Assembly (NCBI GenBank): GCA_038245295.1
Contig: JBBRSP010000019.1
Span: 1 to 64,000, forward strand
Direction of reading: 5' to 3'
Length of the DNA: 64,000 nt
Source of the DNA: Candidatus Binatia bacterium
GTDB taxonomy: Bacteria > Desulfobacterota > Binatia > HRBIN30
Part shown: one piece after another, positions 9,494 to 51,565 of the stretch
Numbering within the stretch: position 1 is the first letter of the stretch
Layout of the letters: each line of letters starts with the position of its first letter
The notes under the pieces: model-generated
The model's database searches: none
Told to the model about the DNA's origin: nothing
What the model saw: only the letters and a program-made list of their open reading frames with translations
Translations under genes and position numbers: made by a program

Positions 9494-9504
9494 TAACAGC
9501 GTAG

Positions 9505-9680: not shown

Positions 9681-9705
9681 CGCACGGGAGCACCGGAGGA
9701 CCGCA

Positions 9706-10836: not shown

Positions 10837-10873
10837 CGCCAGACCATGCCAGCGCCGCGCCGACGGATGATCC

Positions 10874-16509: not shown

Positions 16510-16516
16510 GACAGCA

Positions 16517-28369: not shown

Positions 28370-28656
28370 ATGGTTGCTGCCGCCGGCGCATTGTTCCACG
28401 CCAGACAAGGCAGGCAACCGGATCTACCAACCCAGGGATGCATTGGAACCCCAAGATCTGGCAACGGCTCTTCCGTCTGCGTGGCTGCGGCTCCGCCACC
28501 CCGATTACCGCCCATCACGATCCACATTTTGCACTCCACGGCGTTTGGACTGCGAGCTTCTAGACCCAATACCCTTGTCGGTGCAATAAAATGGTTACAC
28601 AGGGCATCCCTTCCAGCGGAAGGTTGGATTGGAACGCCCAATGACAGGAGTATGGA

Positions 28657-34208: not shown

Positions 34209-36032
34209 TCACGGCTTTCCGGCCATCCGCCAGGTATCACCAAGGCGCACGGCCAAACGAGTCAGACGCACTTCGAGCTCGACGGGTTTGCCGCTCTTCT
34301 CGTCGATGAATGAATCTCGGCGCGTGTAGGAAACGATGAAGTCGTCACCCTGAGGCGTCAGCTTCACGTCGGCGATCTCGACCTTGAGATTGCGGCTGCT
34401 CTCGAAATATTGCCGCAGCGTATCGCGGCGCCGCTGCGGGAACTCGACGTAGAGCGTCGCCAGTCGATCGAGGTCGCGCGCTTCCAGGGCCTCGCGGTAC
34501 GACTGCATCAAGGCGAGTACTTCGGCTTCGCGCGGCTCGCCGCTCGTTTGCGCTTCTGCCGTTCCGATGAACCAGCCTGACACAAGCGGCAGCCCGTTTT
34601 CCAACGCCGAGCGGCGGCGTGGTGCTGTGCGGGCACGCGGCGTTGCGGTTGGCTTGGCCGGCGGCGCATCAACGAGGTCTTCCGATTCCAACAGCAGACG
34701 GTACGCATTGACGTCGGATGTACTTTTCTTGCCGATCGACTGTCCTTCCTCGGGTGATGGATTGACGCGCAGCCGGCGCAACATGCTCAGCACCAGACGC
34801 TTTTGCAGGTCGAAGAAATCGTTCAGCTCGCCTTGCACACTGTCGGACCCCTCTTGCAGCCCACTTTCGGCGTAGATGATGCGGGCATCGATCCGAATCG
34901 CCGTTCCAACGACGCTGAACGATCCCGTAACCAGGCGATCGATCTGCAGCTGCTGCGCGGCGCTCAGTTGGTCGACGCCGCGAGTCTTGATCAGCCGATC
35001 GATCAGCTCTGGGGCATACACATTCAAGGCCCCTACCTTATTGAGTTCTGTGTTGAACGCCACCCGCAAAGCGCTGCCGACCCAGTCATGATCGGTATCG
35101 TTGCGCACATTGCTGAATTCCATGACGGCGATGGTGTTCGGCACGGCAGCAGCGGAGGAATCCGCCTTGGTCAGAGACGGCCGCGGCAGAACCGTCGCGC
35201 CCGGGCGTACCGACACCAGGCGCAAGTCCGTGCCCTCGACCTTGCTGTAGGGGTGCTGTGTATCCGAGGAGATCTCTGCAACCGCTCGCGTAACGTAGCC
35301 GAAGAGCTCACTCACCGAGACAATCCCGTCCCCGTCCGCATCGGCCTTGCCCTGGAGACCTTCGAGCAGGGCATAGGTAAACGCTCCATGCCGCAGCGAC
35401 GGATACTCCTTCGACTCTTCGCCGGGTTTGGTCGCAGCCAGCAGGAAGAACCCTTCACTCGCCGTCAAACGCGCCGCCGGATCGTCCATACTAACCAGAC
35501 CGGGAGCACCAACACGCAAGGCGCCCGAATGACAGGTATCCATCATCAACACGACGCCACGCACGCTCTGGCGCACGACGCGCAGCATTTCGTCGAAGTC
35601 CGACATGCGCACACCGGCGGTCACATGGTTCTCTTTGGTCGCCGTGGCCGGCAAGAAATAGTAGCTGCCGGTGCTGCGATCCTGCACACCGTGCCCGGCA
35701 ACGAAAATCACAACAATATCGTCGGGCCCCGCCTGTCCCAGGAACCGACTCATACTGTTGAGAATACTATCGCGGGTGACCTGCTCGTTGGTCAGCGTCA
35801 GCGTCTTCGTCTCGCGGTAAATGCCGTTGTCGCGTTGCGTGTCGAAGGCCGTCGAGATCGCTTTGGCGTCGGCGTCGGCGAATTGGAGATTCAGGGCGTT
35901 ATCCTGGTAGCGGCTGACGCCGATGGATAGCACCCACAGCACCGGTTTCTGAGCCGCGGCCGCAAAGGCATCGGGCCGGCCACCGATCACCCCGGTCATG
36001 GTGACAAGGAAAATGATGAGCTGTCCACACAT
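34209..36032 (-). CDS. Exported caspase-family protease + FlgO/TolB-N-like + NTF2-like domain, copy 2 (start uncertain)
   Basis: LWVLSIGVSRY, FVAGHG, MDTCHSG, ADADGDGIVSVSEL, HPYSKVEGTDL, SGLQEGSDSV; N-terminal hydrophobic segment. Confidence 0.88.
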   Translation of the reverse strand: MCGQLIIFLVTMTGVIGGRPDAFAAAAQKPVLWVLSIGVSRYQDNALNLQFADADAKAISTAFDTQRDNGIYRETKTLTLTNEQVTRDSILNSMSRFLGQAGPDDIVVIFVAGHGVQDRSTGSYYFLPATATKENHVTAGVRMSDFDEMLRVVRQSVRGVVLMMDTCHSGALRVGAPGLVSMDDPAARLTASEGFFLLAATKPGEESKEYPSLRHGAFTYALLEGLQGKADADGDGIVSVSELFGYVTRAVAEISSDTQHPYSKVEGTDLRLVSVRPGATVLPRPSLTKADSSAAAVPNTIAVMEFSNVRNDTDHDWVGSALRVAFNTELNKVGALNVYAPELIDRLIKTRGVDQLSAAQQLQIDRLVTGSFSVVGTAIRIDARIIYAESGLQEGSDSVQGELNDFFDLQKRLVLSMLRRLRVNPSPEEGQSIGKKSTSDVNAYRLLLESEDLVDAPPAKPTATPRARTAPRRRSALENGLPLVSGWFIGTAEAQTSGEPREAEVLALMQSYREALEARDLDRLATLYVEFPQRRRDTLRQYFESSRNLKVEIADVKLTPQGDDFIVSYTRRDSFIDEKSGKPVELEVRLTRLAVRLGDTWRMAGKP

Positions 36033-36347
36033 TGAGCGCCACCGGGCGACTGAGTACCCCACGATCACCCGGCAGATATTCCTGCATCGGCGCCGCGTTG
36101 CAACAGACAACCACGGACCAAAGGGAGCCAGATCTCGCGAAAATGTTTCCGCCGCGGAAAAAGATTCGTCACTGCGCAACAAACCGAAACTATCCGTCAC
36201 CAGTACCTTACGGAAGCACGAAGATGGATGTGCAGCAGGGTTTCGGGTTACAAGCCAACCTCAGGTGGATTGACCATCGGTACAACATGCGTGACGGCGC
36301 GACTACGCCGGTGCGACATTGGCCGGGGCATCGCCACAGGGGAGTAG

Positions 36348-37292
36348 ATGGCAGAAAGCACCACGGGGGCCCCGGCGGATCGGGAGTTGTTGCAACGTTG
36401 TCTGGCCAACGAGCCAGCCGCGGTGCAGCAGTTCCAGAACGAATACGGGGAACTCATTTACGGCTACCCGATGCGAGTCTACCGAATGCCGCGCGAAGCG
36501 GCCGGGGATTTTTATGTCTACGCCTTCGACGAGGGACGCGTTTTTCGCCGCGCGCGCACGTTCGAAGGACGAACGACATTGCGAGCCTACCTGCAGGGCT
36601 ACGTGCTCGACAATTTGATCCTCGAATGGAAACGCGGTGAACGGGAGGTCGAAACAGTGCCCTTGGATGCGCTCAACGAAATAGCCGATACGCGCTTTGC
36701 GCTCGAAGCCGACGATGAAATCGACACCGTCAGCGAAGGCGCCAACCTGAGCCAGGTGCTTGCCGAGATGGGCTCGGCAAAACTGGTTCTCTTCAAGCTG
36801 CTCTACGTCGAAGACTCCGATCTAACGGCCGATGACCTGCGCTATGTCCGCAAGGTTTCCGGCCGGCGTATCCCGGAGATTCTCGCCGAAGTCGAACGCC
36901 TGCGCACCATCGTGCGTGAACGCGAAGCCGGCATGAAACGCGTCGAAGACGCGGCCGAAGGCGTCCACGCCTGGATTCAACTGTACCAACGCCGCCTGCG
37001 CCGCATCAGCGAAGACCTTGCCGCCTTGCCGCCGGAATCAACCTCCTCCGCCGTCTTACGCGAGGAGCAAGGCGAGTTCGAACGTAAGCTCGTCTGGCGC
37101 GAGCGCCAACGCGCCGCGCTGGTGGATCGTGCCCAGCGCCGCAAGGTTACCGCGCCATATAAGGAAATCGCCGCCCTGCTCGGTACAACGGTCGGCAACA
37201 TTGCGTCGCAGATCTTGCGCTTGCGCCGCGACCTCGCCGCCCGTACCGGCATGCAATTCGAATCGATGAAGCCCGAGGGAGCCGATGAATAG
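36348..37292 (+). CDS. Atypical ECF-like sigma-70 factor, copy 2
   Basis: GGGGAG RBS; GELIYGYP.RVYR, AGDFYV.AFD, FEGR..LRAYL, AWIQLY.RR, TAPYKE.AA.L.TTVGNI.SQI shared with copy 1. Confidence 0.85.
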   Translation: MAESTTGAPADRELLQRCLANEPAAVQQFQNEYGELIYGYPMRVYRMPREAAGDFYVYAFDEGRVFRRARTFEGRTTLRAYLQGYVLDNLILEWKRGEREVETVPLDALNEIADTRFALEADDEIDTVSEGANLSQVLAEMGSAKLVLFKLLYVEDSDLTADDLRYVRKVSGRRIPEILAEVERLRTIVREREAGMKRVEDAAEGVHAWIQLYQRRLRRISEDLAALPPESTSSAVLREEQGEFERKLVWRERQRAALVDRAQRRKVTAPYKEIAALLGTTVGNIASQILRLRRDLAARTGMQFESMKPEGADE

Positions 37293-37911
37293 TGAACGCA
37301 GTCGGATTGATCCGCCGGCCGGAGCGTCTTGCCCCACCCCCGAGACGCTACTTGCTTACCTCGGCGACGAGGTAGCGAGCCCCGCGCGCGACTGGATCGA
37401 TGCGCACCTCGACGGTTGCCAGCCCTGTCTCGAGGTGACGTTGTCCGGTCACGCGCGCTTGCGCCTCGGCGCAATCCGCGAACCGGTGCCGACTGGACTC
37501 CCTCAGCCCACGGCAGCGGTCCCCCCACAAGACGCTGCCGGACCGGTAGGTGCCGTACCATTCCGCCGCCCCCAACGCCCAACGCGCGTGGTGCGGTATC
37601 TACCGGTTCCTCCTCCACGCTGGTTGATCGCCCCGTTGGCGCTCGCCGCCGGTGCGGTTTTGATGCTCGCTTCACCCAACTGGAACCCGAGCAGCGATGC
37701 TCCACTGACGCGTGGCATTGCTGATTCCTCGACCGTCAAGATTACAGCCCGCCAAGCCGATGTTCGTTCCGATCCCTCTCTCCATGCCACGGTGGTTGCA
37801 CAACTGGCCCGTGGAACGGTAGTGGAAGTCGCCGAGCAGGAACGAGAGTGGTTCCGTGTTCGCCTGGTCGGCGGCGGTGAGGGATGGGTCGAGCAAAGAG
37901 CGTGTCGATAG
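37285..37911 (+). CDS. Anti-sigma factor: zf-HC2 - TM - SH3b, copy 2
   Basis: CP..ETLLAYL...HLDGCQPC; TM WLIAPLALAAGAVLMLA; ADVRSDPS...WFRV...EGWV. Confidence 0.88.
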   Translation: MNSERSRIDPPAGASCPTPETLLAYLGDEVASPARDWIDAHLDGCQPCLEVTLSGHARLRLGAIREPVPTGLPQPTAAVPPQDAAGPVGAVPFRRPQRPTRVVRYLPVPPPRWLIAPLALAAGAVLMLASPNWNPSSDAPLTRGIADSSTVKITARQADVRSDPSLHATVVAQLARGTVVEVAEQEREWFRVRLVGGGEGWVEQRACR

Positions 37912-39482: not shown

Positions 39483-40865
39483 ATGAACGATTCGAGTATT
39501 GAACCAACCCGAACCGAGCGCGATCGTTTGATTGCCGATGCCGTTGCCTATGCGCGGCAGTCCGCCTTCTACAAGGCTCATCTGGCTGGGGCCTATGTCA
39601 ACGGACGCGCCGACCTGGCGCGCTTGCCGCTGACCACCAAGGATCATCTGCGCCAGGCGAGTCCGTATGGCATGCTCGCCATCGAACCACACCGCGTCTG
39701 GCACTACCACGAATCCAGCGGCACCACCGGCGAGCCGATCGCCACCTGGGCCGGCCTGAAGGAAGTGCAGCGTATGGGCAGCATCATCCACGCGATGGTG
39801 CCCGAGTTGTCGCAACCGTCGACGCTCCTCAATCGCTTCCCGCTGTTTTCACCCGTGTCGTTCGTCTTCGAAGAAGCGATGCGGCAGGCCGAGATGTGTC
39901 ACATCGCCGCCGGCAACTTCAGCTGGGATGTGCCGTTCTCGCGCGTTCTCGAGTTCATCCACCGCCTCAAAGTAACGGCGCTATCGACCTTGCCGCTGGA
40001 GCCGATCCTGTTGCGCGAGTTGGCCGAGACCGAAGGGCGCTCGATGCGTGACTTCGACTCGCTCAAGGTCATCTTCTGCGGCGGCGCCATCTTGCCGGCG
40101 TCGATGCGCCGCCTCATCGAGCGCGACTGGAGCGCTCGCATTGTCGAGATCTACGGCTCGAATGAAACTCTGCTGCTGGGTGTCGGCTGCACCGCCGGAC
40201 GCACGCACCTGTGTGAGGAGTTGAACGAGTTTGAAGTCCTCGATCCGACGACGCATCAACCCGTCGCCAACGGCGAGGCCGGCATTCTCACCGTAACCAG
40301 CCTCGCCCACGAGGCCGCGCCGCTGGTGCGCTACTACACTGGTGACATCGTCCGTGTTTCGTCCGAGCCATGCCCGTGCGGCAATCCCACCGCGACGATG
40401 CAGTGCCTCGGACGGTACGGAGATCGCATCATCTACGGCGGTGCGTCGATAACGCCGTTGGAGCTTCTCGACGCCGCCTATGAGTTCGCCGAGCACCTCG
40501 GCACCCGCACGTTCTTCATCGTCTTGTTGCAGAAGAACGTACGCTTCCTCGTCGAAGTCGAGCACCCGACCCGTTTCCGCGGCAGCGAGGCGGAGCGGCG
40601 TTTCGTCGAACGCGCCATCGTGCCCATCGAAGTGGAGTATCTCGACAAGAACGACGTGATGGACCGCAGCGCCCTGTTTCGCTCGCCGAAGATCTACAAA
40701 CCGAGCCAGATCAGCGACTGGCGCGGCGGCGGCCGCAAGACGATTACCATCATGGAAGCCCTGCTGGAGTGGCCAACCTACGACAGGCGTACCATCTTCC
40801 ACATCGTCAAGCGCCAGATCCGCAACGGCCTGCGCCGGCGGCGGTTCATCAAGAGTGACCGTTAG
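39483..40865 (+). CDS. Phenylacetate-CoA ligase (PaaK)-like adenylate-forming enzyme
   Basis: SAFY...LPLTTKDHLR, SSGTTGEP P-loop, IYGSNE, PLVRYYTGD, C.CG...LGR. Confidence 0.85.
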   Translation: MNDSSIEPTRTERDRLIADAVAYARQSAFYKAHLAGAYVNGRADLARLPLTTKDHLRQASPYGMLAIEPHRVWHYHESSGTTGEPIATWAGLKEVQRMGSIIHAMVPELSQPSTLLNRFPLFSPVSFVFEEAMRQAEMCHIAAGNFSWDVPFSRVLEFIHRLKVTALSTLPLEPILLRELAETEGRSMRDFDSLKVIFCGGAILPASMRRLIERDWSARIVEIYGSNETLLLGVGCTAGRTHLCEELNEFEVLDPTTHQPVANGEAGILTVTSLAHEAAPLVRYYTGDIVRVSSEPCPCGNPTATMQCLGRYGDRIIYGGASITPLELLDAAYEFAEHLGTRTFFIVLLQKNVRFLVEVEHPTRFRGSEAERRFVERAIVPIEVEYLDKNDVMDRSALFRSPKIYKPSQISDWRGGGRKTITIMEALLEWPTYDRRTIFHIVKRQIRNGLRRRRFIKSDR

Positions 40866-41124: not shown

Positions 41125-42105
41125 TCAGCCGCGGCTCAACTGCGGAAACACCCGCGCCACCTTGCGCCGTAGGTAGTCGCCGTAGGTTCCCTCGAAGTCG
41201 TGGACACTCTCGCCATCCCAGCGCTGGTCGCGGTCGTCGCTGACGCTGCTGCCGAGCTCGATTCGCCCAATGCGATGGATGCGCGCATCGAAGTTGGGAT
41301 CGAAGAAGAACGGGAACGACAGTCGACCACGCCCCGAGGTGTTGCGCACGCGGTGCGGCGTCGAACGGTACACGCCGCCGGTCATGCGATCGAGCATATC
41401 GCCGATGTTGCAAACGAAGCTATCCGGGATCGGTGGTGCCTCGAGCCATCCCTGCTTCGACTTAACCTGCAGGCCACCGCAGTCGTCCTGCCTGAGGATG
41501 GTCAGCAACCCATAGTCGGTATGTTCGCCGACACTCCATACCTGCTCGGCGGCGGCGAGCGGCGGGTAATGGAAGATGCGAAATAGGATGAGTGGATCGG
41601 TCGTGTAGTGTGTCGCGAAGTAGTCAGCGTCGAGACCGAGGCTGAGGCCGATGCCACGCATCAGCGTGTGGCCCAATGTCGTCAGCTCGTCCATGTAGCG
41701 CAGGACCGTTGCTGCCAACTCAGCCGGACGCGATGGAAACAGGTTGGCACCGTGCAGCGGCGTGCCGGCGCGAACGTGCGCGTGCTCCGGTCCTAGCTCA
41801 CGGCCGAAGTAGAGGCCTTCCTTCTGATCCGGCACCCCCGAGGTCAGTTCGTCGCCGACCGGAAAAAACCCACGCCAGGCAAGGCCGCCGCGCGCCATGG
41901 CGATCTGCATCTTCTCGTCGTGTGGCAGGCTAAAGAATTCGCGACTGAGCGCATCGAGCCGGGCCACCAATGTCGCGTCGACGCCGTGACCAACGACATA
42001 GAAGAACCCCGTATCGCGGCAGGCGACGGCGATCTCCGCCGCTGTGCGCGAGGACGAAGCGTCGGAGCGCAAGGACGAAACGTCAATGACAGGAAGGATG
42101 CTCAT
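41125..42105 (-). CDS. 2-oxoglutarate/Fe(II) dioxygenase (isopenicillin N synthase family)
   Basis: LPVID...[37 protein letters not shown]. Confidence 0.93.
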
Positions 42106-42127: not shown

Positions 42128-42267
42128 CTCCCCTCACCCCGCTCGACTCTGGGACCGCAGGCGCGGGGTGAGGGTTAGGGTGAGGGGACTCGGATGCAAA
42201 CCGCCAGCGGGCCCTCACCCCGACCCTCTCCCACATGCCGCGAACTCGCTCGCGGTGGGAGAGGGAA
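42128..42267. repeat. CCCTCACCC/CCCTCTCCC...GGGAGAGGG REP-type repeat
   Basis: ccctcacccc...ggggtgagggttagggtgagggg...ccctcaccccgaccctctccca...tgggagaggga. Confidence 0.75.
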
Positions 42268-42310
42268 GTGTTGTCTTTCCATCTCCCACAGGAACAGAGA
42301 GGTCCGCGGA

Positions 42311-43483
42311 CTAAGCCGCAACGCGCGGCGGATTGTAGTTGTCGAACGTGGCGCCTTTGGCCTCGTGATCGGAAAGAATGGCCTCGAAGGGTCGCTGATC
42401 GATCACTTCGAACTGGCTGGTCTCGAGTGGAAAGTTGGCGCCCGCCGGTGTGTACGGCGTCACCGCGGCGGAGCCAGCCGAAATGACCCGGACGACCGGT
42501 GCCAGGCGTTGCTGCATCTCACGATTCTCGCGCGTCGTGATCACGGTCTTGGCGGTCGGCAGGGCCAGCGCCAGCAGCGATACTAGGCGCACGAATGACT
42601 CGTCATCGACATCGCGATGGCTGGCGCCGCCCGAGATACGTCGCAGGCGCGGCACGGAGAGATACACTTCCATACCAAGCTTCTGCAGATGACGGCTGTG
42701 CAAGACCAACGCCGTGAGCTCGTAGATGAGGGCGGGGTTCAGCCCGAGCAAAATTCCCGGGTGAGCGACGCGCATTCCAGCGCGGAAGGCGCGATCGAAG
42801 TTGACCAGGCGGCGCGCAAAATCGGCGCGTGGGTTGCCCGGCGTCTGCCCCATAAATTTGCGGTAGACCTCCGGCTCGTAGGTTTCCTGAAAGGTCGACA
42901 TCGTAAGCTTCGGCATGATGGCGCCGTCGTCGTCGCGGTCGACGCCGTCGAGCAACACGTCGAACTCGTCGTCGTCGATCGAGCCGACATTGATCAGGAC
43001 GTGTCCGAATTTGAGCTCCTGCGTCGCACGCACCGCCGCATTGACGTAACGCATCGCCCAGTCGCGGCGCTCGCGCCGGTACTCGCCGGTGAGCAACGCT
43101 ACGGCCAGCATGCCGCGCTGACTCAGGATGCGTAGCTGCGCGATCACACCGTCGACATCGGCCGTCTCGCGTTGCAACGCACGGTTGTCCGTGCGCATGC
43201 CGCACATCTTACACTCGGCATCGCAGGTATTGGTCATGTAGAGCGGCGAGAAGGTCTCCAGATTATGTGCCTCGGGCGCCCGCAGAGCCGCGGCGTGATC
43301 AAAAATCGCCGCCGTATCGATCGATGAGAACCACAGCCGGGCCATATCGGCCGCTGCCAGAGGTGACGTGAGTGTGACCGCGCTCAGCAATCCGGCAGCG
43401 TCGATGTGATCGACCTGACTGCGAGCGGCATCGATCTGTTGATGGAGAGCATCGCTATCGAGTTGAAAATCGTGATGCATCAT
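42311..43483 (-). CDS. Radical SAM aromatic amino-acid lyase, NosL/NocL-like (putative 3-methyl-2-indolic acid synthase)
   Basis: TFSPLYMTNTCDAECKMCGMR, LTGEY, NVGS, FQETY...FMG...P.ADF.RR, LSVPR, TTRE, VISAGS...PY, SQF.V.D.R, matching NosL as I recall it. Confidence 0.8.
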   Translation of the reverse strand: MMHHDFQLDSDALHQQIDAARSQVDHIDAAGLLSAVTLTSPLAAADMARLWFSSIDTAAIFDHAAALRAPEAHNLETFSPLYMTNTCDAECKMCGMRTDNRALQRETADVDGVIAQLRILSQRGMLAVALLTGEYRRERRDWAMRYVNAAVRATQELKFGHVLINVGSIDDDEFDVLLDGVDRDDDGAIMPKLTMSTFQETYEPEVYRKFMGQTPGNPRADFARRLVNFDRAFRAGMRVAHPGILLGLNPALIYELTALVLHSRHLQKLGMEVYLSVPRLRRISGGASHRDVDDESFVRLVSLLALALPTAKTVITTRENREMQQRLAPVVRVISAGSAAVTPYTPAGANFPLETSQFEVIDQRPFEAILSDHEAKGATFDNYNPPRVAA

Positions 43484-43899: not shown

Positions 43900-44859
43900 A
43901 TGGGGCAACGATCGCGGGTAAAAATTGGGGTCGCAGTCTTGTTGGCATGCAATCAGTTCGCTTGTGGAGCAGTGATCAGCGGCACAACGCAGCGAGTGAG
44001 AGTGTCTTCAGATCCGGACGCGGCGCAGATCGAAGCGGTGAGTCGGCGTGGATCACGTAGTGCAACTGCACCGGGATACGTGGATGTTAGCCGTCGTCGG
44101 CCAGGCCTTGGGGTCATTCGCGCCAGCAAGGAGGGCTACCACTCTGCGTGCCGCGTCATCGAATCAAAGCGCGACCCGGCGCTCATGACCCTCGATATCA
44201 TCCCCGCCGCGCTCCCTCTCCTGCTCGATCTTATGATTAAAACCTGGCCTCCCGGTGACTACCCGAAGAGTGTCGACTTGGCGCTCGAGCCCTTACCTCA
44301 GGGGTGGGTCGACGTGCTGCCATCGGCCACGGCCATCCTCGACGCGTTTGACATCGCTCAAGTCAACTTCTGCGACCCGTCCGCCGAGCTGAAAGGTTGG
44401 ATGCGCATTCGCAGTCAGTACGCGAATCGAGCCACAAGGATTATCGCTACTTCCGGTGATCTATCCCGGCCCTACGATGTCGTGGGCCGCGTCGACGTCA
44501 GCGCCGAAGGAACCAACTACTGGGTATTCAACTACTGGCGGTTCGGCTCGCTTGGCACATTCGACCTCCGCCACTACGAGTACAAAGAAGACCCGGCCGC
44601 AATGAATGAGATGTTGAAGTTCAGAGCCTTCGAGAAATTCGGCGATACGTTCGATGCCATCCTAAACGTTCACTACGAATCCATGCCTCACAACAGCGTC
44701 TCCGCGGGGGGCGTAGCGGTCCGCTTCACGGGCTCCGAGGCATCGGCGCACCAAGGGAATGAGGAGCGACTGAAGGAGATACGAAATCTGCTCGACAAGG
44801 GGCTAATTACGAATGAGCAGTATGAACAGAAGCGAGCAGATATTTTGAAAGGTCTATAG
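43900..44859 (+). CDS. Hypothetical exported/lipoprotein with PEGA-like N-terminus and C-terminal SHOCT
   Basis: ACGAVISGTTQRVRVSSDP...SKEGY; ERLKEIRNLLDKGLITNEQYEQKRADIL. Confidence 0.7.
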   Translation: MGQRSRVKIGVAVLLACNQFACGAVISGTTQRVRVSSDPDAAQIEAVSRRGSRSATAPGYVDVSRRRPGLGVIRASKEGYHSACRVIESKRDPALMTLDIIPAALPLLLDLMIKTWPPGDYPKSVDLALEPLPQGWVDVLPSATAILDAFDIAQVNFCDPSAELKGWMRIRSQYANRATRIIATSGDLSRPYDVVGRVDVSAEGTNYWVFNYWRFGSLGTFDLRHYEYKEDPAAMNEMLKFRAFEKFGDTFDAILNVHYESMPHNSVSAGGVAVRFTGSEASAHQGNEERLKEIRNLLDKGLITNEQYEQKRADILKGL

Positions 44860-45767
44860 TGGACGCTGGGTCGCGCCCGACGCCGAACGCCGCGACAACG
44901 CTGCTGCAAGACGGCGGTCTTGATCCGGAGGCCGTCGACTGGGCGCATGTGAGTCTTCCGCCCGCGTGGCCGGATCGGCTGAACCTCCGCCAGGCGCGTG
45001 ATCTGGCCTACTACGTGGCCCGCCTGTTTGGCCGCCGCCGTCCGGTTGAGCTACCGACACAGTTAAGACTGCGTCGCGAACTGCCGGCCTACCTGCTGCA
45101 GGAGTTCCACCACCTGCCGAACGGCAATTATTCTCTGCGCCTTAGCGATATCTATGTGACCTGGTTCGATCGCTCGATGCTCGGAACGATGAAACGGGGT
45201 CGCGGTCGCATCGTCGACGCGTTGGCCGGCTGTTTCAGCGTGCTTGATCTCGGTTGCGGTGGGGCCCAGCTCGGGCAGATGCTGCGTCAACGGGGCGTAG
45301 CAGAGGTCTGGGGTATGGATGCGTCGCCGTATCTCTTGCATCAGGCGGCCCGCCGTGTTGCCGGTGTGAAGCTCGTACAAGGCCTGGCGGAGGACAGCGG
45401 ATTCCCCGCTGAGCGCTTCGATGGCATCGGCGCCTGCTTCTTGTTTCATGAACTGACGCCGCACGCTGCCGACGACGTCTTGCGCGAGGCCTGGCGCATT
45501 CTGAAGCCTAGTGGGCTGCTGGCGGTAACCGAGCCTTGTCCCGATCAGCTGCACGAACGGAATCTGTGGCGACTCTGGCGTCAGGCTGGCTTGGCTGGTT
45601 TTTACTTTGCGACGCTTGCCCGCTTCGTCCACGAACCCATGCTCGACGCCTGGTATGCAGTCGATCTACGTGCGTGGCTCGACCGCGCCGGCTTCGATCT
45701 GTTGAGCGACGAGTCTTGTTTACCGTTTCGAACGTTTGTGGCGCGCAAGCGCGGTGGCACCGCCTGA
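44859..45767 (+). CDS. Class I SAM-dependent methyltransferase
   Basis: VLDLGCGGAQ, GMDAS, QGLAE...FD, FLFHE, RILKPSG. Confidence 0.88.
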   Translation: MDAGSRPTPNAATTLLQDGGLDPEAVDWAHVSLPPAWPDRLNLRQARDLAYYVARLFGRRRPVELPTQLRLRRELPAYLLQEFHHLPNGNYSLRLSDIYVTWFDRSMLGTMKRGRGRIVDALAGCFSVLDLGCGGAQLGQMLRQRGVAEVWGMDASPYLLHQAARRVAGVKLVQGLAEDSGFPAERFDGIGACFLFHELTPHAADDVLREAWRILKPSGLLAVTEPCPDQLHERNLWRLWRQAGLAGFYFATLARFVHEPMLDAWYAVDLRAWLDRAGFDLLSDESCLPFRTFVARKRGGTA

Positions 45768-45799: not shown

Positions 45800-47050
45800 T
45801 CAGCGGACCGCGATCTCGGCGTGGTCGTGTCCGATGGTACCCCACTTCACCATGAAATCGACGAGCCCGACGCTGTAACGACTGCGGGTCGCTTCACCCG
45901 TGAAGACACGCGGAAGGTGGCGTCCGATATGGCGGTTGAGAATCCACCAGGCCCGCTCTTGGGACTTCAGCTGGCCAACCTGAAACAACGTGAACAGGCT
46001 GCCGTCGTAGTAGTAGTCCACTAGGCGTTGCCACACTTTGAGGTTGTAGGCGACATGTGTCTCGAAGCGTTTCATTGCTCGGGTGCTGCCATCGAGAAGA
46101 GCTTGCGAGAGTTCGAGCGCGCCTTCCATGCCGATCAGCAGCCCGCTCGAGAAGACCGGGTCGATGAAGCCGAACGCATCGCCCACGGTGGCCCAGTTTT
46201 CGCCGAATCCGCGCAGCGAGCGCATCTGGTAGTTGCTGTACTTGACGACGGGTGTGACCCGCTCGGCGCCGTGGCTCCAACGCGCCAGCATCGGTTCCTC
46301 GCGCAGCGTTCCAGCGAACTGGTCCTCGATCGACGCTCCAAAACGCGCCAGGTGGGCGGCGTTGACCACGAGTCCGATCGACACGCGGCCCGGAAGCGGG
46401 ATGCGCCAGCACCAGCCTCGCGTCAGGCGATCGGTGTGTACGTTGCCGTCAACGACAAGCGGAACGCCCGTCATGTGGGCGTGCAGCGCCGCGTCCTTAC
46501 GGGGGCCCTCAACGAACGGCAGCTCGAGGAGGTTGGCGATCGTACGGCTGCGCCCGGTGGCGTCGACAATCCAATCGGGTTGCTCGCGGATGGTCCCGCC
46601 GGCCATCTCCAGTGTTTTCGCGGTGAGGCGTAGCCGATCGGTGCCGTCGACGCGCTCCAGGCCGGCGGTGGCCTCGATCACCGCGGTGCCGGCGTCCCTT
46701 GCGGCCTGAAGGATTACGGCGTCGAAGAGGTCACGTGGCGTATTGTAGGAGTAGTTGACCTCGGCACCGATAACCTGGTCGAAGCGAAACGTAATGGTGC
46801 TCTCGTTCGTCAACACGAAGGTGGCTCCAGGCTTGTGGGTACTGAAAGCCTTCACCTCCTCCTCGATGCCGAGGCGGCGCAGGAATGGGATGATGGCCGG
46901 GACCAATGATTCGCCGACGATGATGGGAGGTCGCTTTGGCTTGTGGAAAAGGATCACACGAACCCCGGCACGCGACAGGTAGGTCGCCAGGCTGGCACCC
47001 ACCGGGCCGCCGCCGAGGATGGCGACGGTGCGCACTCTTTGATCCCCCAT
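45800..47050 (-). CDS. Flavin-dependent halogenase-family enzyme
   Basis: GGGPVG FAD motif, VGESL, HKPGA (candidate catalytic Lys), DATG, WCWRIP (WxWxIP), GDAFGFIDPVFSSG. Confidence 0.85.
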   Translation of the reverse strand: MGDQRVRTVAILGGGPVGASLATYLSRAGVRVILFHKPKRPPIIVGESLVPAIIPFLRRLGIEEEVKAFSTHKPGATFVLTNESTITFRFDQVIGAEVNYSYNTPRDLFDAVILQAARDAGTAVIEATAGLERVDGTDRLRLTAKTLEMAGGTIREQPDWIVDATGRSRTIANLLELPFVEGPRKDAALHAHMTGVPLVVDGNVHTDRLTRGWCWRIPLPGRVSIGLVVNAAHLARFGASIEDQFAGTLREEPMLARWSHGAERVTPVVKYSNYQMRSLRGFGENWATVGDAFGFIDPVFSSGLLIGMEGALELSQALLDGSTRAMKRFETHVAYNLKVWQRLVDYYYDGSLFTLFQVGQLKSQERAWWILNRHIGRHLPRVFTGEATRSRYSVGLVDFMVKWGTIGHDHAEIAVR

Positions 47051-47183
47051 GCTCCGACCCTACAATCAGCCGGATGACGACGCAACGGCGTGAGTAGTTC
47101 GGCCTGGCAAACGATTTGACAGGTTTGCCCTCCTTGGGTGAAGAATGGCCCGTGGCGGCTATGGCAGGATCGAACGAGCGGGT

Positions 47184-47438
47184 ATGGTGACCAAAGAAGA
47201 ACTGGAAGAGCGCATCTTGGCGATCGTCCGCGAGGACATCCTGAAGGTCGACGAGAGCTTCACGCCGCAGGCGAACCTCATCGAGGCGGGCCTCGACTCA
47301 CTGGCGCTGACACAGTTGATGCTGGCGATCGAGGAGAGTACCGGGCTGTGGGTCGACGAGAGTTTGCTCACGGAAGAGACCGTAGCCAACGTCATCACCT
47401 TGACCGCGCTCGTGTATGCCGAACTACAGCAACACTGA
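47184..47438 (+). CDS. Acyl/aryl carrier protein
   Basis: Acidic ~84 aa; LIEAGLDSLAL phosphopantetheine Ser motif. Confidence 0.9.
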   Translation: MVTKEELEERILAIVREDILKVDESFTPQANLIEAGLDSLALTQLMLAIEESTGLWVDESLLTEETVANVITLTALVYAELQQH

Positions 47439-48804
47439 CGTCGTGCCGTTGACCGGTGCCGATTGCTTCTTGAGAGCCATCGATTCCGAGGCGCGGCGCA
47501 GCGGACAGGCCGGTCATCTTTCCCAACTCGTGCTCAGACTCGGCCCCGCCTTCGATGTCGACAGGTTCCGGCGTCTCATCGAGGAAGTTTCGCGCGCCAA
47601 TCCCATCGTGCGCTCACCCATCCGCCGCCAGGCGGTTGTCGGACCTCCCGTCTACCGCCTCGACCGCGCCGTGCCGCCACCGGGCGTAAGTATCAACCTG
47701 CATTCCTTGGCCGCCGTCGTCGCAGCGAACGATTCGGAGGCACCGGCGCTTGGCGCCATCCCTGATTTATTCTGCCGCCGCCTCAACGATCGACTCGATG
47801 CGACACACGGGAGACTACTCTGTTTCGACCTTGTGCCGCGAGGCGGTGTGCATCCCGGGACTGATCTCGCCATGACTTGGCAGCATATGCTCTTCGACGG
47901 CTCCGGCAGCGAGCTTTTCGTCGAGCACCTCGCGGCGTGTTCGTCCGACCCGTCGCGCGGTCGCGAGTTGCCGATCAACCGCGCCGCCGGCGGCAAGTCA
48001 TCGTCTGCCGTGGCAGAGTTGGCCGCGACCGCCGGTGAGCGCGGACAGATGGCCCAGGCCTGGAACACCTACATGCACGGCGTTGCCGCCAAGCGTCCTA
48101 CCTCACTGGCCGGCCCCTTGCGCCAGGCGCAACAAGACCTGCGCTACGACCAGGTACGTCTCGAAGGCAGCGACGCCGTGAACGCCATCGACCGAGCCAA
48201 AAAGATGGCTGGTTTCCTGACACCGATGTTGTTCTTTCTCGCCGTATCATTGCGCGCGCACCAGGCGGTTGCCGACCTTCGTGGTCGTTCGTCGACGAGC
48301 TGGATCGTGCCGCTACCCGTCGACCTGCGACCGAAGGGAGGACAGGGCGAAGTCTTTCGCACGCATGTGTCGCTGCTGTGGTTTCAGGTCACAACCGACG
48401 AGACTCGCGACTTGGCTGGGTTGATCGAGGTGCTGAAGGTACAGCGCCTCTCGGCCATTCGCGCCAAGCTCGTCGAAGCCGGCGTGGCGGCGTTGGACTT
48501 CGCTCGGTACGCGCCGGCGCGGCTCTATTCACACATGGCCCGTCGCACTTTCGGCGGCGAGCTCGGATCGTTCTTCTTCGCGTACACCGGAGAGTTCGCG
48601 CCGGCCGCCGAATCGCTGTGCGGCGCGACGATCCTCGACGCCTTCCACGCGCCGTCGGTGCCGGCATCGCCCGGCAGCGCTCTGGTGTTCAGCCGGCGCG
48701 GCGGCGGCCTCAGCGCGGTGCACGTCTATCAGCGCGACAGCGTTGATCCTGCCGATCTCGGCGTACTACGCGAGCAGCTGCGGCGCGATCTGGGTGTCCA
48801 ATGA
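47416..48804 (+). CDS. Condensation-domain/CoA-dependent acyltransferase-fold protein
   Basis: WQHMLFDGSG (HxxxDG), PVDLR motif; overlaps the ACP gene. Confidence 0.75.
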   Translation: MPNYSNTDVVPLTGADCFLRAIDSEARRSGQAGHLSQLVLRLGPAFDVDRFRRLIEEVSRANPIVRSPIRRQAVVGPPVYRLDRAVPPPGVSINLHSLAAVVAANDSEAPALGAIPDLFCRRLNDRLDATHGRLLCFDLVPRGGVHPGTDLAMTWQHMLFDGSGSELFVEHLAACSSDPSRGRELPINRAAGGKSSSAVAELAATAGERGQMAQAWNTYMHGVAAKRPTSLAGPLRQAQQDLRYDQVRLEGSDAVNAIDRAKKMAGFLTPMLFFLAVSLRAHQAVADLRGRSSTSWIVPLPVDLRPKGGQGEVFRTHVSLLWFQVTTDETRDLAGLIEVLKVQRLSAIRAKLVEAGVAALDFARYAPARLYSHMARRTFGGELGSFFFAYTGEFAPAAESLCGATILDAFHAPSVPASPGSALVFSRRGGGLSAVHVYQRDSVDPADLGVLREQLRRDLGVQ

Positions 48805-50117
48805 CGATCGTTCGATCGCCGCCGCCGCACGACTACGCCGTTGCCGTGATCGGCGGCGGTCCGGCGGGCATCGCCGCCGCGCTGGCCGCGGCGAGCTGCG
48901 GCGCCAACGTGCTCCTTATTGAGCGCGACGCGAGGCTCGGTGGCAACGTTTCCCAGGCTCTGGTGCACACGATTTGCGGACTCTATCTCGCGTCGGCGAA
49001 TCGCGACGCCGTCTTCGCGCATCAAGGCCTGCCGCGCTTCTTCGCCGAAACGCTGATGGCCGATTGTAGTGCAGGCGAAGTCGGCTGGGCGGGCGATGCC
49101 AGCTTCCTGCCGATCGATCCGCAGGAATTCGGCAATCTGGCCGAGCATCTCTGCGGCAGGAGCGTCTCCATCGACCGCTGGATGGACGCAAGCCTGACGG
49201 GACTGGCGCTGGCTCACGGCGACGGCGGGATGTGCGGCATTGATGTGGAACGAAGCGGCGGCCTCGAGGCACACGCATCTGCCTGGGCGGTTGTCGATGC
49301 TACCGGGGACGCAACCGCCGCTGCACTCGCCGGCGTTCAGACCGAATACGCACTGCCCGACGAGCTCCAGCACGCGTCGTACATCTTCCGCATTGACGGC
49401 GTCGACGGCGCCGCATTGGACCACCTGGAGAGAGCTCGTACGAGCCTCGCCGTGGCACGTGCCGCCCGGACCGGCAAAGTCGCGACGACGGCTGCCTCGA
49501 TTGTCGTGCGCGCCGTGAGTGGCGAATCGGTGTTCGTGACGCTGAATCTACCGAAACCTACCGGCCGCCCTTTCGATCCTCTCGACGCCGTCGCGTTCGG
49601 ACACCTGCAAGACACCGCCGCTCGCGATGCGCGTCAGGTCCTGGCGTTTCTCCTCGCCGAGCGCGGTCCCTTTCGGAACGCTCGACCGGGCGCGTGGCCG
49701 GCGCGCGTCGGAATCCGCGAAACCCGCCGCGTCATCGGCCTCGAGCGCCTTGAGGTTGCCGACGTGCTCGAAGGCAAACGCCGCGACGACGAGGTCTGCA
49801 TTTCGACGTGGCCGGTAGAGCTCTGGCACAGTCACGAACGCGTGGTGTTTCGCCACACCGCCGGACCGTCGTCGATTCCGCTGGGGTGTCTGGTTGCCGA
49901 TCACCCCGGCCGCCGCCTTGCGATGGCAGGACGTTGCGTTTCGGCGAGCCACGAAGCCCTTGGCGCGATCCGGGTGATCGGAACATCGATGGCGATGGGT
50001 GAAGCGGCCGGCGTTGCCTGTGCGCTCGCGGCAACGTTTCGCAAAGACCTGTCCTCGATCGATGCTGCCGAGATACGCCACGCCATCGCCTCGGGCGCAA
50101 CGAGAGCAAACCTGTGA
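48801..50117 (+). CDS. FAD-dependent oxidoreductase (FAD_oxidored family)
   Basis: VIGGGPAGIAAALAAA, LGG, VDATGD, IRETRR, AGRCVSASHEA...RV...MAMGEAAG. Confidence 0.88.
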   Translation: MTIVRSPPPHDYAVAVIGGGPAGIAAALAAASCGANVLLIERDARLGGNVSQALVHTICGLYLASANRDAVFAHQGLPRFFAETLMADCSAGEVGWAGDASFLPIDPQEFGNLAEHLCGRSVSIDRWMDASLTGLALAHGDGGMCGIDVERSGGLEAHASAWAVVDATGDATAAALAGVQTEYALPDELQHASYIFRIDGVDGAALDHLERARTSLAVARAARTGKVATTAASIVVRAVSGESVFVTLNLPKPTGRPFDPLDAVAFGHLQDTAARDARQVLAFLLAERGPFRNARPGAWPARVGIRETRRVIGLERLEVADVLEGKRRDDEVCISTWPVELWHSHERVVFRHTAGPSSIPLGCLVADHPGRRLAMAGRCVSASHEALGAIRVIGTSMAMGEAAGVACALAATFRKDLSSIDAAEIRHAIASGATRANL

Positions 50118-51565
50118 CGAAGCTTGCCGAGGGCAAGTTCCCTCCCCAACGGCAAGTGAACGTCTTCGACTGCATCGCCGAGCAGGCGCGGTTGAGGCCG
50201 GACCATCCTGCCGTGACCCAGGACGGGGCACGAGCGCGCACTGTGACCTACGGCGAGCTTGTCAGGAACGCACGACGCAGGGCCGAGGAGATGCAGCCCT
50301 CAGGCATTGCCCGGTCTTGGCGTGTCGGAATGATCTATCCGCAGGGCGTCGACTTTATCGAGACAGCGCTGGCGCTCCTGTCGCTGCGTGCGTGCATGGT
50401 GCCGATCGCCGATGATCACCCGGCGGCGACCATTGCTGAGATCGTGCGCCGCGCCCATCTGCACGCGTTACTCGACGGAAAGCGGGGCGTGGTGGAGGTG
50501 TTGCCCGCAACGCCGCTCGCTCCCGAGGTGGAAGAAGCCTTCGCCGCCACCGGCCCGGCCTATCTGCGCTTTACATCGGGTACGACGAGCGAGCGAAAGG
50601 GGGTGCTGATCGGTCATGCGCGCATCCTCGAACGACTCGAGGCTGCCAACCGCGGCCTCGCCATCGGGCCGCAGGACCGGGTGTTGTGGCTGCTGCCGAT
50701 GGCGCACCATTTCGTCGTATCGATCCTGTTGTACCTGCGTTACGGCGCAACCATCCTGCTGCCGTCGACTGGGCTGGCGCCGTCTATTCTCGATCTTGCC
50801 GGACGCGAGCGGGCGACGGTGCTGTACGCGTCGCCGCATCACATGAAGCTGCTGGCCAAGGAAGCATCGACAGTGCGCATGGACACGTTGCGCTTGGTGA
50901 TCTCGACGGCGGAGGGGCTCCGTGCGGATGTCGCCGACGCGTTCGCGCAACGCTTCGGCATCGCGATCGTGCAGGCCCTCGGCATCATGGAAGTTGGCCT
51001 GCCCGTGATGAACACGGTCAGTGCCACAACGAAACCCGTCGCGCTCGGCCGGGCGCAACCGGCGTACGAAGTATGGCTGCGCGACGACGACGGCCGTCCG
51101 GCGGCTGGTCACAGCCCGGAGACCAGTGGCGAGATCTGTATCCGGGGGCCCGGGATGCTCGACGCGTATCTCGATCCGTGGACGCCGTGGTCGGATATCG
51201 TCGAGCCGGATGGCTTTCGTACGGGTGACCATGGGTGGTTCGACGGCGACGGCGATCTCCACCTCGCCGGAAGGCGGGCGGCGCGCATCAACATGTCTGG
51301 CATGAAGTTCTTCTGCGAGGAGGTCGAGGCGGTGCTCGATACACACCCCGCCATCCAGAGGAGTCGGGTGTCAGCCAAGCAGCATCCCCACCTCGGCGAG
51401 CTTCCGGTGGCCGAGATCGTTCTCGTCCCCGGTGCGGCGCCCCCTGTGCCGAGGCAACTCACGTCGTTCTGTCGCGAACGTCTGGCCAGTTACATGGTTC
51501 CGCGAAGTTTCGAAGTGGTGACGGAGCTGCCGACGACGCTGACTGGGAAGCTCGCGCGGCGATGA
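50114..51565 (+). CDS. AMP-dependent acyl-CoA/acyl-ACP ligase
   Basis: FTSGTTSERKG, GEICIRGP, FRTGD, GR...INMSG.K...EEVE, LP.T.TGKL. Confidence 0.9.
   Translation: MTKLAEGKFPPQRQVNVFDCIAEQARLRPDHPAVTQDGARARTVTYGELVRNARRRAEEMQPSGIARSWRVGMIYPQGVDFIETALALLSLRACMVPIADDHPAATIAEIVRRAHLHALLDGKRGVVEVLPATPLAPEVEEAFAATGPAYLRFTSGTTSERKGVLIGHARILERLEAANRGLAIGPQDRVLWLLPMAHHFVVSILLYLRYGATILLPSTGLAPSILDLAGRERATVLYASPHHMKLLAKEASTVRMDTLRLVISTAEGLRADVADAFAQRFGIAIVQALGIMEVGLPVMNTVSATTKPVALGRAQPAYEVWLRDDDGRPAAGHSPETSGEICIRGPGMLDAYLDPWTPWSDIVEPDGFRTGDHGWFDGDGDLHLAGRRAARINMSGMKFFCEEVEAVLDTHPAIQRSRVSAKQHPHLGELPVAEIVLVPGAAPPVPRQLTSFCRERLASYMVPRSFEVVTELPTTLTGKLARR

What the first reader, a model, noticed from the sequence alone, without database searches (positions are those of the whole stretch)
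42311..43483. NosL-like radical-SAM tryptophan lyase outside any visible thiopeptide cluster
Seen: PLYMTNTCDAECKMCGMR, LTGEY, NVGS, TMSTFQETY, P.ADF.RR, LSVPR, TTRE, ISAGS..V.PY, SQF.V.D.R. Known (recalled, not searched): Streptomyces NosL has PLYTTNYCDSECKMCSMR, LTGEY, NIGS, TMCVFQESY, PKADFDRR, LSVPR, TTRE, ISPGSPDVAPY, SQFLVADLR and converts L-Trp to 3-methyl-2-indolic acid for nosiheptide. The substrate-pocket residues appear retained, with a Cys-to-Ser change in TM(C/S)xFQE. No YcaO, LanB or precursor peptide is visible in the window. Inference: methylindolic acid or a related product is used in a different pathway in a diderm bacterium.
Basis: partly seen in the sequence, partly recalled or inferred. 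Interest (0 to 1): 0.8.

Follow-up and report, generated by a model that had tools for sequence, protein, structure and literature searches.

The report
NosL sister enzyme in lipid pathway
An uncultured bacterium, probably of the Binatia group, carries an intact relative of the antibiotic enzyme NosL, and across related genomes this gene is almost always found with an acid-activating ligase gene; the pair likely turns tryptophan into an indole acid that would be built into an undescribed membrane lipid or pigment rather than an antibiotic.

Summary
The ORF (42311-43483, minus strand, 390 aa) and every motif listed are real. It sits on the NosL side of the family. It keeps NosL Y90, R323 and S340 and lacks all published tyrosine-lyase markers (ThiH R306, the beta-8 insertion, E158). 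Its model is closest to NosL (Z 50 against 40 for ThiH). It is not a strict NosL (TIGR04158 246 bits, cut-off 400). It belongs to a large Binatia-type sister clade found in 58 of 251 class genomes. No YcaO or SagB was found in its genome.

It is not an orphan. A PaaK-type aryl-acid ligase 1.4 kb away (39483-40865) co-occurs with it in 55 of 58 genomes. In relatives, both lie in clusters with ketosynthase/chain-length-factor pairs, ACP, deacetylase and membrane acyl-handling genes; here those genes are scattered over other contigs.

Best reading (0.5, inferred): Trp is converted to 3-methyl-2-indolic acid, activated by the ligase and attached to an aryl-polyene-like envelope lipid. A role in thiamine synthesis is unlikely, and the Cys-to-Ser change is a common variant. 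Nothing was assayed. The scan found this family before on three other genomes.

The parts
42311..43483 (-). NosL-sister radical SAM enzyme, 390 aa; CxxxCxxC at residues 87-94; Y82, R318 and S335 correspond to NosL Y90, R323 and S340
39483..40865 (+). PaaK-type aryl-acid AMP/CoA ligase, 460 aa, convergent on the radical SAM gene; the inferred partner
   Evidence: Pfam AMP-binding; NCBIfam BagE/FevW, PaaK and FlxY, all below cut-off; nearest structures ClxA, NatL2, AjiA1; present in 55 of 58 NosL-like carriers
41125..42105 (-). 2-oxoglutarate/Fe(II) oxygenase lying between the two core genes; probably a lineage-specific insertion, not part of the conserved module
   Evidence: Pfam DIOX_N and 2OG-FeII_Oxy; no tblastn hit in any other locus fetched; G206 has the pair adjacent; G238 has two other small ORFs in the same gap
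42160..42270 (.). Dispersed intergenic repeat between the oxygenase and the radical SAM gene (bounds approximate)
   Evidence: 72 blastn HSPs in the genome, self hit included
44859..45767 (+). Class I methyltransferase; neighbour, homologous to the methyltransferases beside the NosL-like gene in family f13 and in the genome's own KS cluster
   Evidence: 71% to the C2 copy, about 50% to f13 copies
45800..47050 (-). FAD-dependent halogenase/reductase-like protein; member of a second, separately distributed cassette
   Evidence: Pfam Trp_halogenase, CmlS-like below cut-off; 56% to the G107 copy
47145..47438 (+). Acyl carrier protein of the second cassette
   Evidence: Pfam PP-binding; 49% to the G107 copy
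47416..48804 (+). Protein with an HxxxDG motif, a condensation/acyltransferase-like protein (motif meaning recalled); second cassette, does not track the NosL-like gene
   Evidence: no Pfam or NCBIfam hit; 36 of 251 genomes, 9 of them NosL-like carriers; among close hits 2 of 26
48801..50117 (+). FAD-dependent oxidoreductase of the second cassette
   Evidence: Pfam FAD_oxidored
50114..51565 (+). AMP-dependent acyl ligase of the second cassette
   Evidence: Pfam AMP-binding and AMP-binding_C; 55% to the G107 copy

Best explanation
The gene encodes a radical SAM enzyme of a sister branch of NosL that likely converts L-tryptophan to 3-methyl-2-indolic acid, which the co-inherited PaaK-type ligase at 39483-40865 would activate and pass to an aryl-polyene-like envelope lipid predicted to be made by the genome's type II ketosynthase genes. 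Shown: intact gene, CxxxCxxC, NosL fold and branch, NosL-type marker residues, co-occurrence and co-location with the ligase, and residence in KS/chain-length-factor lipid clusters in relatives. Inferred from NosL chemistry (PMC9046217): hydrogen abstraction at the amino group, C-alpha-C cleavage and carboxyl migration to indole C2. Inferred from context: adenylation of the acid by the ligase and its transfer to the lipid. I slightly favour the acid as an added acyl cap (about 0.3) over the polyene starter unit (about 0.2); both are counted in the confidence.
For: Marker residues. Amara 2022 (PMC9046217) names R306 and a one-residue beta-8 insertion as the likely primary markers for tyrosine, and E158 (in HydG, a Glu at 128) as the carboxyl contact that NosL lacks. 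In 120 of 120 listed homologues the R306 position is Gln, the spacings are NosL's 17/9, the E158 position is Asn and the 128 position is Leu. All 6 ThiH and 10 HydG rows had Arg and spacings 18/10.
Fold and tree. Model pLDDT 87.9; NosL Z 50.3, rmsd 2.2 over 373 residues; ThiH Z 39.7. The NosL-like side is separated from ThiH/HydG with support 1.0 and 99.
Partner. Same 251 genomes: NosL-like 58, ligase orthologue 58, both 55. Within the 7 carrier families (107 genomes): 55 both, 3 and 3 single, 46 neither. Of the 55, 27 have the genes within 300 bp and 15 have them on different contigs; 38 of 64 metagenome loci have them adjacent. A ligase implies an acid product. Its nearest structures activate aromatic acids (ClxA with 3-amino-4-hydroxybenzoate, NatL2 with salicylate).
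Controls. The cluster ammonia-lyase is in only 27 of 58 carriers, and 4 genomes that have it lack both core genes. The neighbouring HxxxDG gene does not track the pair.
Lipid link. Neighbours in relatives are KS/CLF pairs, ACP, FabG, FabA/Z, LolA, an MMPL-type exporter, a deacetylase, acyltransferases and an LPG-synthase TM protein. 53 of 58 carriers have the LPG-synthase TM orthologue. This genome holds the core set at C2:111-130 kb, C2:285-287 kb, C5 and C9.
For the cap. 21 genomes have the LPG-TM gene without the NosL-like gene, and G096 has an ACP/HxxxDG/ligase cassette where relatives have ligase-NosL-LPG-TM.
Against: There is no activity data of any kind. The protein is below the TIGR04158 cut-off (246 against 400) and only about 37-39% identical to thiopeptide NosL. 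Several beta-strand positions differ from S. actuosus NosL in nearly all 120 homologues: S79 for Val, L163 for Tyr, Y274 for Asp, A336 for Pro. H241 is found only in this protein. Whether these positions line the Trp pocket was not tested, because no coordinates were available. Amara 2022 states that the origin of C-alpha-C versus C-alpha-C-beta selectivity could not be pinpointed, so the markers indicate and do not prove. In this genome the pair is not linked to the KS genes. In family f5 the pair also lies away from the KS cluster. The KS query found only 37 of 58 carriers at E 1e-105, although G009, G072 and G198 show KS genes near the pair and fell below that threshold. Related genomes are not independent, so the co-occurrence counts are not a statistical test.
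Confidence: 0.5

Rival explanations
1. Same NosL-type carboxyl migration and the same ligase partner, but on a different aromatic amino acid: a modified tryptophan, or phenylalanine giving 2-methylbenzoic acid.
For: The clade is the sister of all other NosL-like proteins sampled and has fixed barrel changes (S79, L163, Y274, A336). The f12-type members have Thr at the S340 position. Halogenase-like, methyltransferase and B12-radical-SAM genes lie in the same clusters.
Against: S340 is kept as Ser in 120 of 120 homologues; its S340A change lets NosL accept N1-methyl-Trp (PMC9850924, PMC4916742). Y274 is also present in NosL-like proteins of another lineage, one of which passes the TIGR04158 cut-off. 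NosL itself accepts few ring-substituted analogues.
Confidence: 0.2
2. The enzyme and ligase make a free small molecule (an indole-acyl amide, ester or CoA-derived metabolite), independent of the ketosynthase lipid, and only share its neighbourhood; in this genome possibly with the adjacent oxygenase or ACP cassette.
For: The pair lies apart from the KS genes here and in f5. The ligase's nearest structures come from benzoxazole pathways (their direct amide/ester formation is recalled). Other NosL-like proteins pair with PaaK-like ligases in clusters with no KS genes seen.
Against: Linkage to KS, LPG-TM or deacetylase genes is seen in 6 of the 7 carrier families, f5 being the exception. 53 of 58 carriers have the LPG-TM orthologue, which is rare elsewhere in the class. 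The oxygenase is not in any other fetched locus, and the ACP cassette does not track the pair.
Confidence: 0.15
3. It is a stand-in for ThiH: it cleaves C-alpha-C-beta (of Trp or Tyr) and hands dehydroglycine to ThiG for thiamine synthesis.
For: The genome has thiS-thiG-thiE, no ThiO over cut-off (best 88.5 against 250.8) and no other ThiH/HydG-type match. NosL partitions partly to C-alpha-C-beta cleavage. Many database names for the homologues read 2-iminoacetate synthase.
Against: ThiG is in 244 of 251 class genomes but this gene is in only 58, and the others showed no ThiH-type match with this query, so the gap is class-wide and not filled by this gene. No thiamine-pathway family appeared among the recurrent neighbours annotated. 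E158, R306 and the beta-8 insertion are all absent. A paired acid ligase would have no purpose.
Confidence: 0.07
4. It is a displaced or residual NosL of a nosiheptide-type thiopeptide cluster located elsewhere in the genome.
For: NosL is its closest characterised relative, and the genome is in 129 contigs.
Against: No YcaO or SagB was found in a 96.6% complete genome and the controls rang. It falls outside the thiopeptide NosL clade (support 100). True thiopeptide loci L097, L099 and L100 look entirely different.
Confidence: 0.02

Closest known systems
NosL/NocL, 3-methyl-2-indolic acid synthase of nosiheptide/nocathiacin biosynthesis (TIGR04158; PDB 4R33, 6HTK)
   Same: Fold (Z 50.3, rmsd 2.2 over 373), CxxxCxxC, Y90/R323/S340 equivalents, loop lengths around beta-8, absence of the tyrosine markers, and pairing with an adenylating enzyme.
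   Different: About 38% identity, below the family cut-off, a separate sister clade. No YcaO or SagB in the genome. The partner is a PaaK-type ligase, not the NosI-type enzyme seen in L097. The context in relatives is a KS/CLF lipid cluster. Several fixed barrel substitutions.
ThiH (TIGR02351; PDB 7PD1) and HydG (TIGR03955), radical SAM tyrosine lyases
   Same: Same superfamily branch and barrel fold (Z 39.7 and 39.5); shared TRE, SxGS and QF motifs.
   Different: 147 and 92 bits against cut-offs of 380 and 312. Lacks R306, the beta-8 insertion and E158/E128. No HydG C-terminal extension. Not linked to thiG.
Flexirubin/aryl polyene initiation, FlxA plus FlxY (Chitinophaga pinensis, PMC3992019)
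   Same: An amino-acid-derived aromatic acid is activated by a ligase in a cluster with several KS genes, reductase, dehydratase, deacetylase, acyltransferase, LolA and exporter. The same gene kinds surround the pair in relatives.
   Different: The acid source here would be a radical SAM lyase, not a tyrosine ammonia-lyase. The ligase scores 101 against the FlxY cut-off of 520. The cluster ammonia-lyases carry the SH motif (its reading as histidine-type is recalled). DarAB was not searched.
Benzoxazole-pathway aryl-acid ligases ClxA (9S45), NatL2 (6SIW), AjiA1 (6WUQ)
   Same: Nearest solved relatives of the partner ligase by sequence and fold.
   Different: Only 27-28% identity; their substrates are amino/hydroxybenzoates; the substrate of this ligase is untested.
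Anammox putative ladderane FAS II cluster (KS/CLF-like heterodimer; bioRxiv 10.64898/2026.05.19.726425; TIGR04072)
   Same: FabF-like KS paired with an inactive copy, ACP, FabZ and radical SAM genes. A relative's cluster has a B12 radical SAM over the TIGR04072 cut-off.
   Different: This genome has no TIGR04072 member over cut-off. No NosL-like gene is mentioned in the passages of that preprint that I read.

Membership tests
NosL/NocL (TIGR04158) | Score over the curated cut-off (400 bits) | tested here: not met
   246.4 bits; other clade members 251-252
NosL/NocL (TIGR04158) | Radical SAM CxxxCxxC and full TIM barrel | tested here: met
   C87/C91/C94 in 120 of 120; model and fold match
NosL/NocL (TIGR04158) | Y90, R323, S340 substrate contacts | tested here: met
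   Y82, R318, S335 in 120 of 120
NosL/NocL (TIGR04158) | Absence of the tyrosine markers (R306, beta-8 insertion) and of an acidic carboxyl contact | tested here: met
   Q324, spacings 17/9, N165, L131 in 120 of 120
NosL/NocL (TIGR04158) | Falls inside the clade of thiopeptide-cluster NosL proteins | tested here: not met
   Separate clade (96), sister to all other NosL-like rows (99); thiopeptide/RiPP NosL clade 100 (quick tree)
NosL/NocL (TIGR04158) | Lies in a nosiheptide-type cluster with YcaO, SagB-type dehydrogenase and NosI/J/K | tested here: not met
   No YcaO or SagB in the genome, controls rang; LanB search uninformative
NosL/NocL (TIGR04158) | Converts L-Trp to 3-methyl-2-indolic acid | not testable with these tools
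   Needs an enzyme assay
ThiH (TIGR02351) | Score over cut-off (380 bits) | tested here: not met
   147.4 bits
ThiH (TIGR02351) | R306, beta-8 insertion with S321, and E158 | tested here: not met
   Gln, no insertion, Asn; all three present in 6 of 6 ThiH rows
ThiH (TIGR02351) | Linked to or co-distributed with thiG | tested here: not met
   thiG is on C46; thiG in 244 of 251 against 58 of 251
HydG (TIGR03955) | Score over cut-off, C-terminal extension, R306 | tested here: not met
   91.7 against 312 bits; 390 aa against a 470-position model; Gln at R306
Aryl polyene/flexirubin-type lipid cluster | KS and chain-length-factor pairs, ACP, FabG, dehydratase, LolA, exporter, deacetylase, acyltransferase | tested here: met
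   All present in this genome but on other contigs; contiguous with the pair in G206, G018, G068, G139
Aryl polyene/flexirubin-type lipid cluster | Flexirubin-specific models over cut-off (FlxY, FlxB, LolA2) | tested here: not met
   101/520, 241/340, 70/125 bits
Aryl polyene/flexirubin-type lipid cluster | Dialkylresorcinol genes darAB (flexirubin) | not tested
   No search was run
Aryl polyene/flexirubin-type lipid cluster | Produces a conjugated aryl polyene lipid | not testable with these tools
   Needs chemistry; no culture or product data are available here

The most novel reading that the evidence does not exclude
Binatia use the deepest sampled branch of NosL-like enzymes, with a dedicated ligase, to prime or cap a highly reducing type II polyketide with 3-methyl-2-indolic acid. 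This would make a widespread, undescribed class of indolyl-polyene envelope lipids, and would mean that methylindolic acid is mainly a lipid building block, with the nosiheptide use a minor derived case.
Probability: 0.35. Interest if true: 0.8.

Novelty: new variant of a known kind. Interest (0 to 1): 0.6.

Why it matters
NosL chemistry (carboxyl-radical migration on tryptophan) has been characterised for thiopeptide antibiotics. This protein stands for a much larger, conserved clade (775 homologues listed as matches; 58 of 251 class genomes) that appears to feed a cell-envelope lipid pathway in an uncultured lineage. It predicts a new lipid or pigment chemotype and a possible biomarker for these bacteria. 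The clade branches between the tyrosine lyases and NosL, so it offers natural variants for the open question of what selects C-alpha-C over C-alpha-C-beta cleavage. Two genes expressed in E. coli are enough for the first test.

Tried and rejected
Thiamine stand-in: rejected on distribution and markers.
Hidden thiopeptide cluster: YcaO and SagB not found; the LanB search gave no ring in any control and is not used.
Ligase as partner of the cluster ammonia-lyase: rejected, because 28 genomes have NosL-like plus ligase without that lyase at E 1e-100 and 4 have the lyase without either.
The adjacent 2OG oxygenase, SHOCT protein and ACP/HxxxDG cassette as partners: they do not recur with the gene.
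Cys-to-Ser at 196 as a functional switch: both residues are common, and a protein over the TIGR04158 cut-off has Ala there.
Pfam gave no hit for the protein at E 0.001, which is uninformative.
The promoter scan found 0 sites and 1 terminator-like site, no more than shuffles.
The careful IQ-TREE run did not finish, so the quick tree is quoted.
The KS co-occurrence threshold undercounts family f12.
No complex prediction was run, since no binding is claimed.
Literature searches found no description of this clade: 'Binatota'+'aryl polyene' 0 papers; 'Binatia'+'NosL' 0; one search gave 1 listing (ThioFinder); one search gave 4 listings, none on this by title or abstract start; none of the 20 papers listed held the indole-acid term. 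The library lacks most subscription journals, so absence from print is not shown.

Full report
Observation. NCBIfam ranks TIGR04158 first (246 bits, cut-off 400), then ThiH (147/380) and HydG (92/312), so it passes no family cut-off. It is single-copy and has genome-average GC (0.622 against 0.627). Named homologues include Candidatus Binatia, so I call it probably Binatia.

Which branch. A model built on 25 homologues has pLDDT 87.9. It matches NosL at TM 0.89 and Z 50.3, rmsd 2.2 over 373 residues, against Z 39.7 for ThiH and 39.5 for HydG. Amara et al. [quoted passage not shown] They name E158 (in HydG, a Glu at position 128) as the one clear difference near C-alpha. Mapped through the alignments, all 120 listed homologues have Gln at the R306 position, NosL's spacings (17 and 9), Asn at E158 and Leu at 128. 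All 6 ThiH and 10 HydG rows had Arg and spacings 18 and 10. NosL Y90, R323 and S340 (PMC9850924 and PMC4916742, passages; C95 numbering from PMC13598754, passages) are Y82, R318 and S335, invariant in 120 of 120. Against a simple identity with NosL, S79, L163, Y274 and A336 differ from S. actuosus NosL across the clade, and H241 is unique to this protein. I could not test whether they line the pocket.

Trees. A FastTree of 64 rows and an IQ-TREE quick tree of 70 rows (10 rows dropped, 16 locus proteins added; the careful search did not finish; 20 rows flagged for composition) both place the Binatia-type clade (0.976; 96) as sister to all other NosL-like rows (0.973; 99). Both separate the two from ThiH/HydG (1.0; 99). 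Thiopeptide/RiPP-cluster NosL proteins form a small clade (100) inside the other group. The basal position is provisional.

No thiopeptide. YcaO and SagB were not found in the 96.6% complete genome and the controls rang. The LanB search had no ringing control. True nosiheptide-type loci fetched from metagenomes (L097, L099, L100) show the expected neighbours and look nothing like this one.

Not an orphan. The gene was found in 58 of 251 genomes of the class. In 20 class genomes plus two other loci, the commonest neighbour was a PaaK-type ligase, whose orthologue lies in the window at 39483-40865, convergent on the radical SAM gene. Over the same 251 genomes the ligase orthologue (E below 1e-100; four weaker hits set aside) is in 58, and 55 genomes have both. 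Within the seven carrier families (107 genomes) the split is 55 both, 3 and 3 single, 46 neither. Of the 55, 27 have the genes within 300 bp, 12 within 50 kb, 1 further apart and 15 on different contigs; 38 of 64 Binatia-type metagenome loci have them adjacent. Trees of the two genes from 18 genomes share their deep groups. Kin are not independent, so these are descriptive counts. Controls behave differently. ThiG is in 244 of 251. The cluster ammonia-lyase (E below 1e-100) is in 31 genomes, 27 of them carriers, and 4 lyase genomes lack both core genes. The window's HxxxDG gene is in 36 genomes, only 9 of them carriers. The ligase's nearest structures are ClxA, NatL2 and AjiA1, which bind aromatic acids. 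A dedicated acid ligase is the best contextual argument that the radical SAM product is an aromatic acid, as in NosL, and not a cresol/skatole plus dehydroglycine pair.

The wider pathway. In relatives the pair sits among two KS plus chain-length-factor pairs (catalytic Cys/His motifs in one partner only), ACP, FabG, FabA/Z, LolA, an MMPL-type exporter, a polysaccharide deacetylase, acyltransferases, an LPG-synthase TM protein, halogenase-like FAD enzymes and B12 radical SAM proteins. This resembles the flexirubin cluster, where FlxA and the ligase FlxY start the polyene (PMC3992019, passages), and the KS/CLF-like pair of the anammox cluster (bioRxiv 10.64898/2026.05.19.726425, passages; its supplements are closed). 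This genome has the core set, but scattered: C2:111-130 kb, C2:285-287 kb, C5:62-63 kb, C5:133-136 kb and C9:58-63 kb; two B12 radical SAM genes seen in relatives' clusters have no close match here. The LPG-TM orthologue is in 74 of 251 genomes, including 53 of 58 carriers; 21 genomes have it without the NosL-like gene. The KS query found 52 genomes, 37 of them carriers, at a threshold that undercounts f12. The pair is therefore an optional cassette nested in a broader lipid system. In G096 an ACP/HxxxDG/AMP-ligase cassette occupies the place where relatives have ligase-NosL-LPG-TM. The window carries both cassettes side by side, as f13 genomes do. The 2OG oxygenase between the two core genes was found in no other fetched locus and looks like an insertion; G238 has other small genes in the same gap.

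Mechanism. Shown: gene, fold, branch, markers, partner and context. Inferred: the 5'-deoxyadenosyl radical abstracts the amino hydrogen of Trp, the C-alpha-C bond breaks, and the carboxyl moves to indole C2; the ligase adenylates the acid; the acyl group enters the lipid. A cap is favoured by the optional and swappable nature of the cassette, by other candidate primers beside the KS genes in f9, f12 and f13, and by the ligase-NosL-LPG-TM gene order in f12. My first reading was the starter unit; the scan's note e1-5015691 and the G096 result moved me towards the cap. A starter is favoured by the FlxY precedent and by G206, where the ligase is the last gene of the KS run and no other ligase or ammonia-lyase was seen in the 55 kb fetched. 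Confidence in the whole chain is 0.5. The rivals are another aromatic substrate (0.2), a free small molecule (0.15), a ThiH stand-in (0.07) and a thiopeptide remnant (0.02).

Novelty. It works like NosL by every marker I could test, but it is not a member of the strict family: cut-off, clade and context are not met. My searches found no paper on this clade (listings only; the library is incomplete). The scan itself noted the family three times on other genomes; those notes are unchecked AI notes and are not counted as support. Recalled and from no call: the meaning of the HxxxDG and SH motifs, the roles of NosI/J/K, and the direct amide/ester chemistry of the benzoxazole ligases. Verdict: a new variant of a known kind, interest 0.6.

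Noticed in passing
L088-L093 and L102 (for example L092:6371-15826): A second non-thiopeptide NosL-like system in metagenomes: HemN/NosN-like radical SAM, NosL-like protein (L092 passes TIGR04158 at 410 bits), dihydroorotate-dehydrogenase-like, creatininase and PaaK-like ligase genes. No YcaO was seen among the L092 genes scanned; it may make an unknown indole metabolite.
   Followed up: partly
L087:1992-17050 (NC_012654.1) and six other plasmids: Clostridium botulinum plasmids carry a NosL-like gene annotated ThiH, in a run with PaaK-like ligase, HemN-like, methyltransferase, creatininase, dihydroorotate dehydrogenase, nucleoside deoxyribosyltransferase, MATE and metK genes. It has NosL-type markers, so the ThiH name looks wrong.
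   Followed up: partly
G000:C46:21366-22100 (L065): thiS-thiG-thiE with no ThiO over cut-off and no ThiH match in this genome; ThiG is in 244 of 251 class genomes while no ThiH-type match appeared with this query. The dehydroglycine source of the class is unexplained; ThiO was searched only in this genome.
   Followed up: partly
window 45800-51565: Halogenase-like, ACP, HxxxDG protein, FAD oxidoreductase and AMP ligase form a cassette with its own distribution (36 of 251 genomes for the HxxxDG gene; close copies in f7, f3 and f13), probably another acyl-donor module for the same lipid system.
   Followed up: partly
window 5044-17827: A run of multihaem cytochrome c genes (doubled CXXCH, MtrC-like domains) with NHL propeller and PKD-domain proteins, suggestive of extracellular electron transfer.
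   Followed up: no
window 26474-30199 and 34209-37911: Two similar modules of a caspase-domain protein divergent from an ECF-type sigma factor and an SH3-domain protein.
   Followed up: no
G000:C9:58468-61011 (L063:4469-7012) and homologues in four relatives: A protein of about 850-895 aa with a C-terminal Omp85-like barrel hit sits next to a KS gene of the lipid cluster; function unknown.
   Followed up: no
L078:2318-3925, L038:13472-14989, G000:C37:42093-43574: The ammonia-lyases in these lipid clusters carry the SH motif, recalled as histidine-type, which would point to urocanate as another possible acyl unit.
   Followed up: partly
L002: A genome labelled Myxococcota carries the f12-type ligase, NosL-like and LPG-TM gene order and groups with f12 in both gene trees.
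   Followed up: partly
window 56095-57701: Thiolase-like gene with a ChsH2-type OB-fold partner; a common pair.
   Followed up: no
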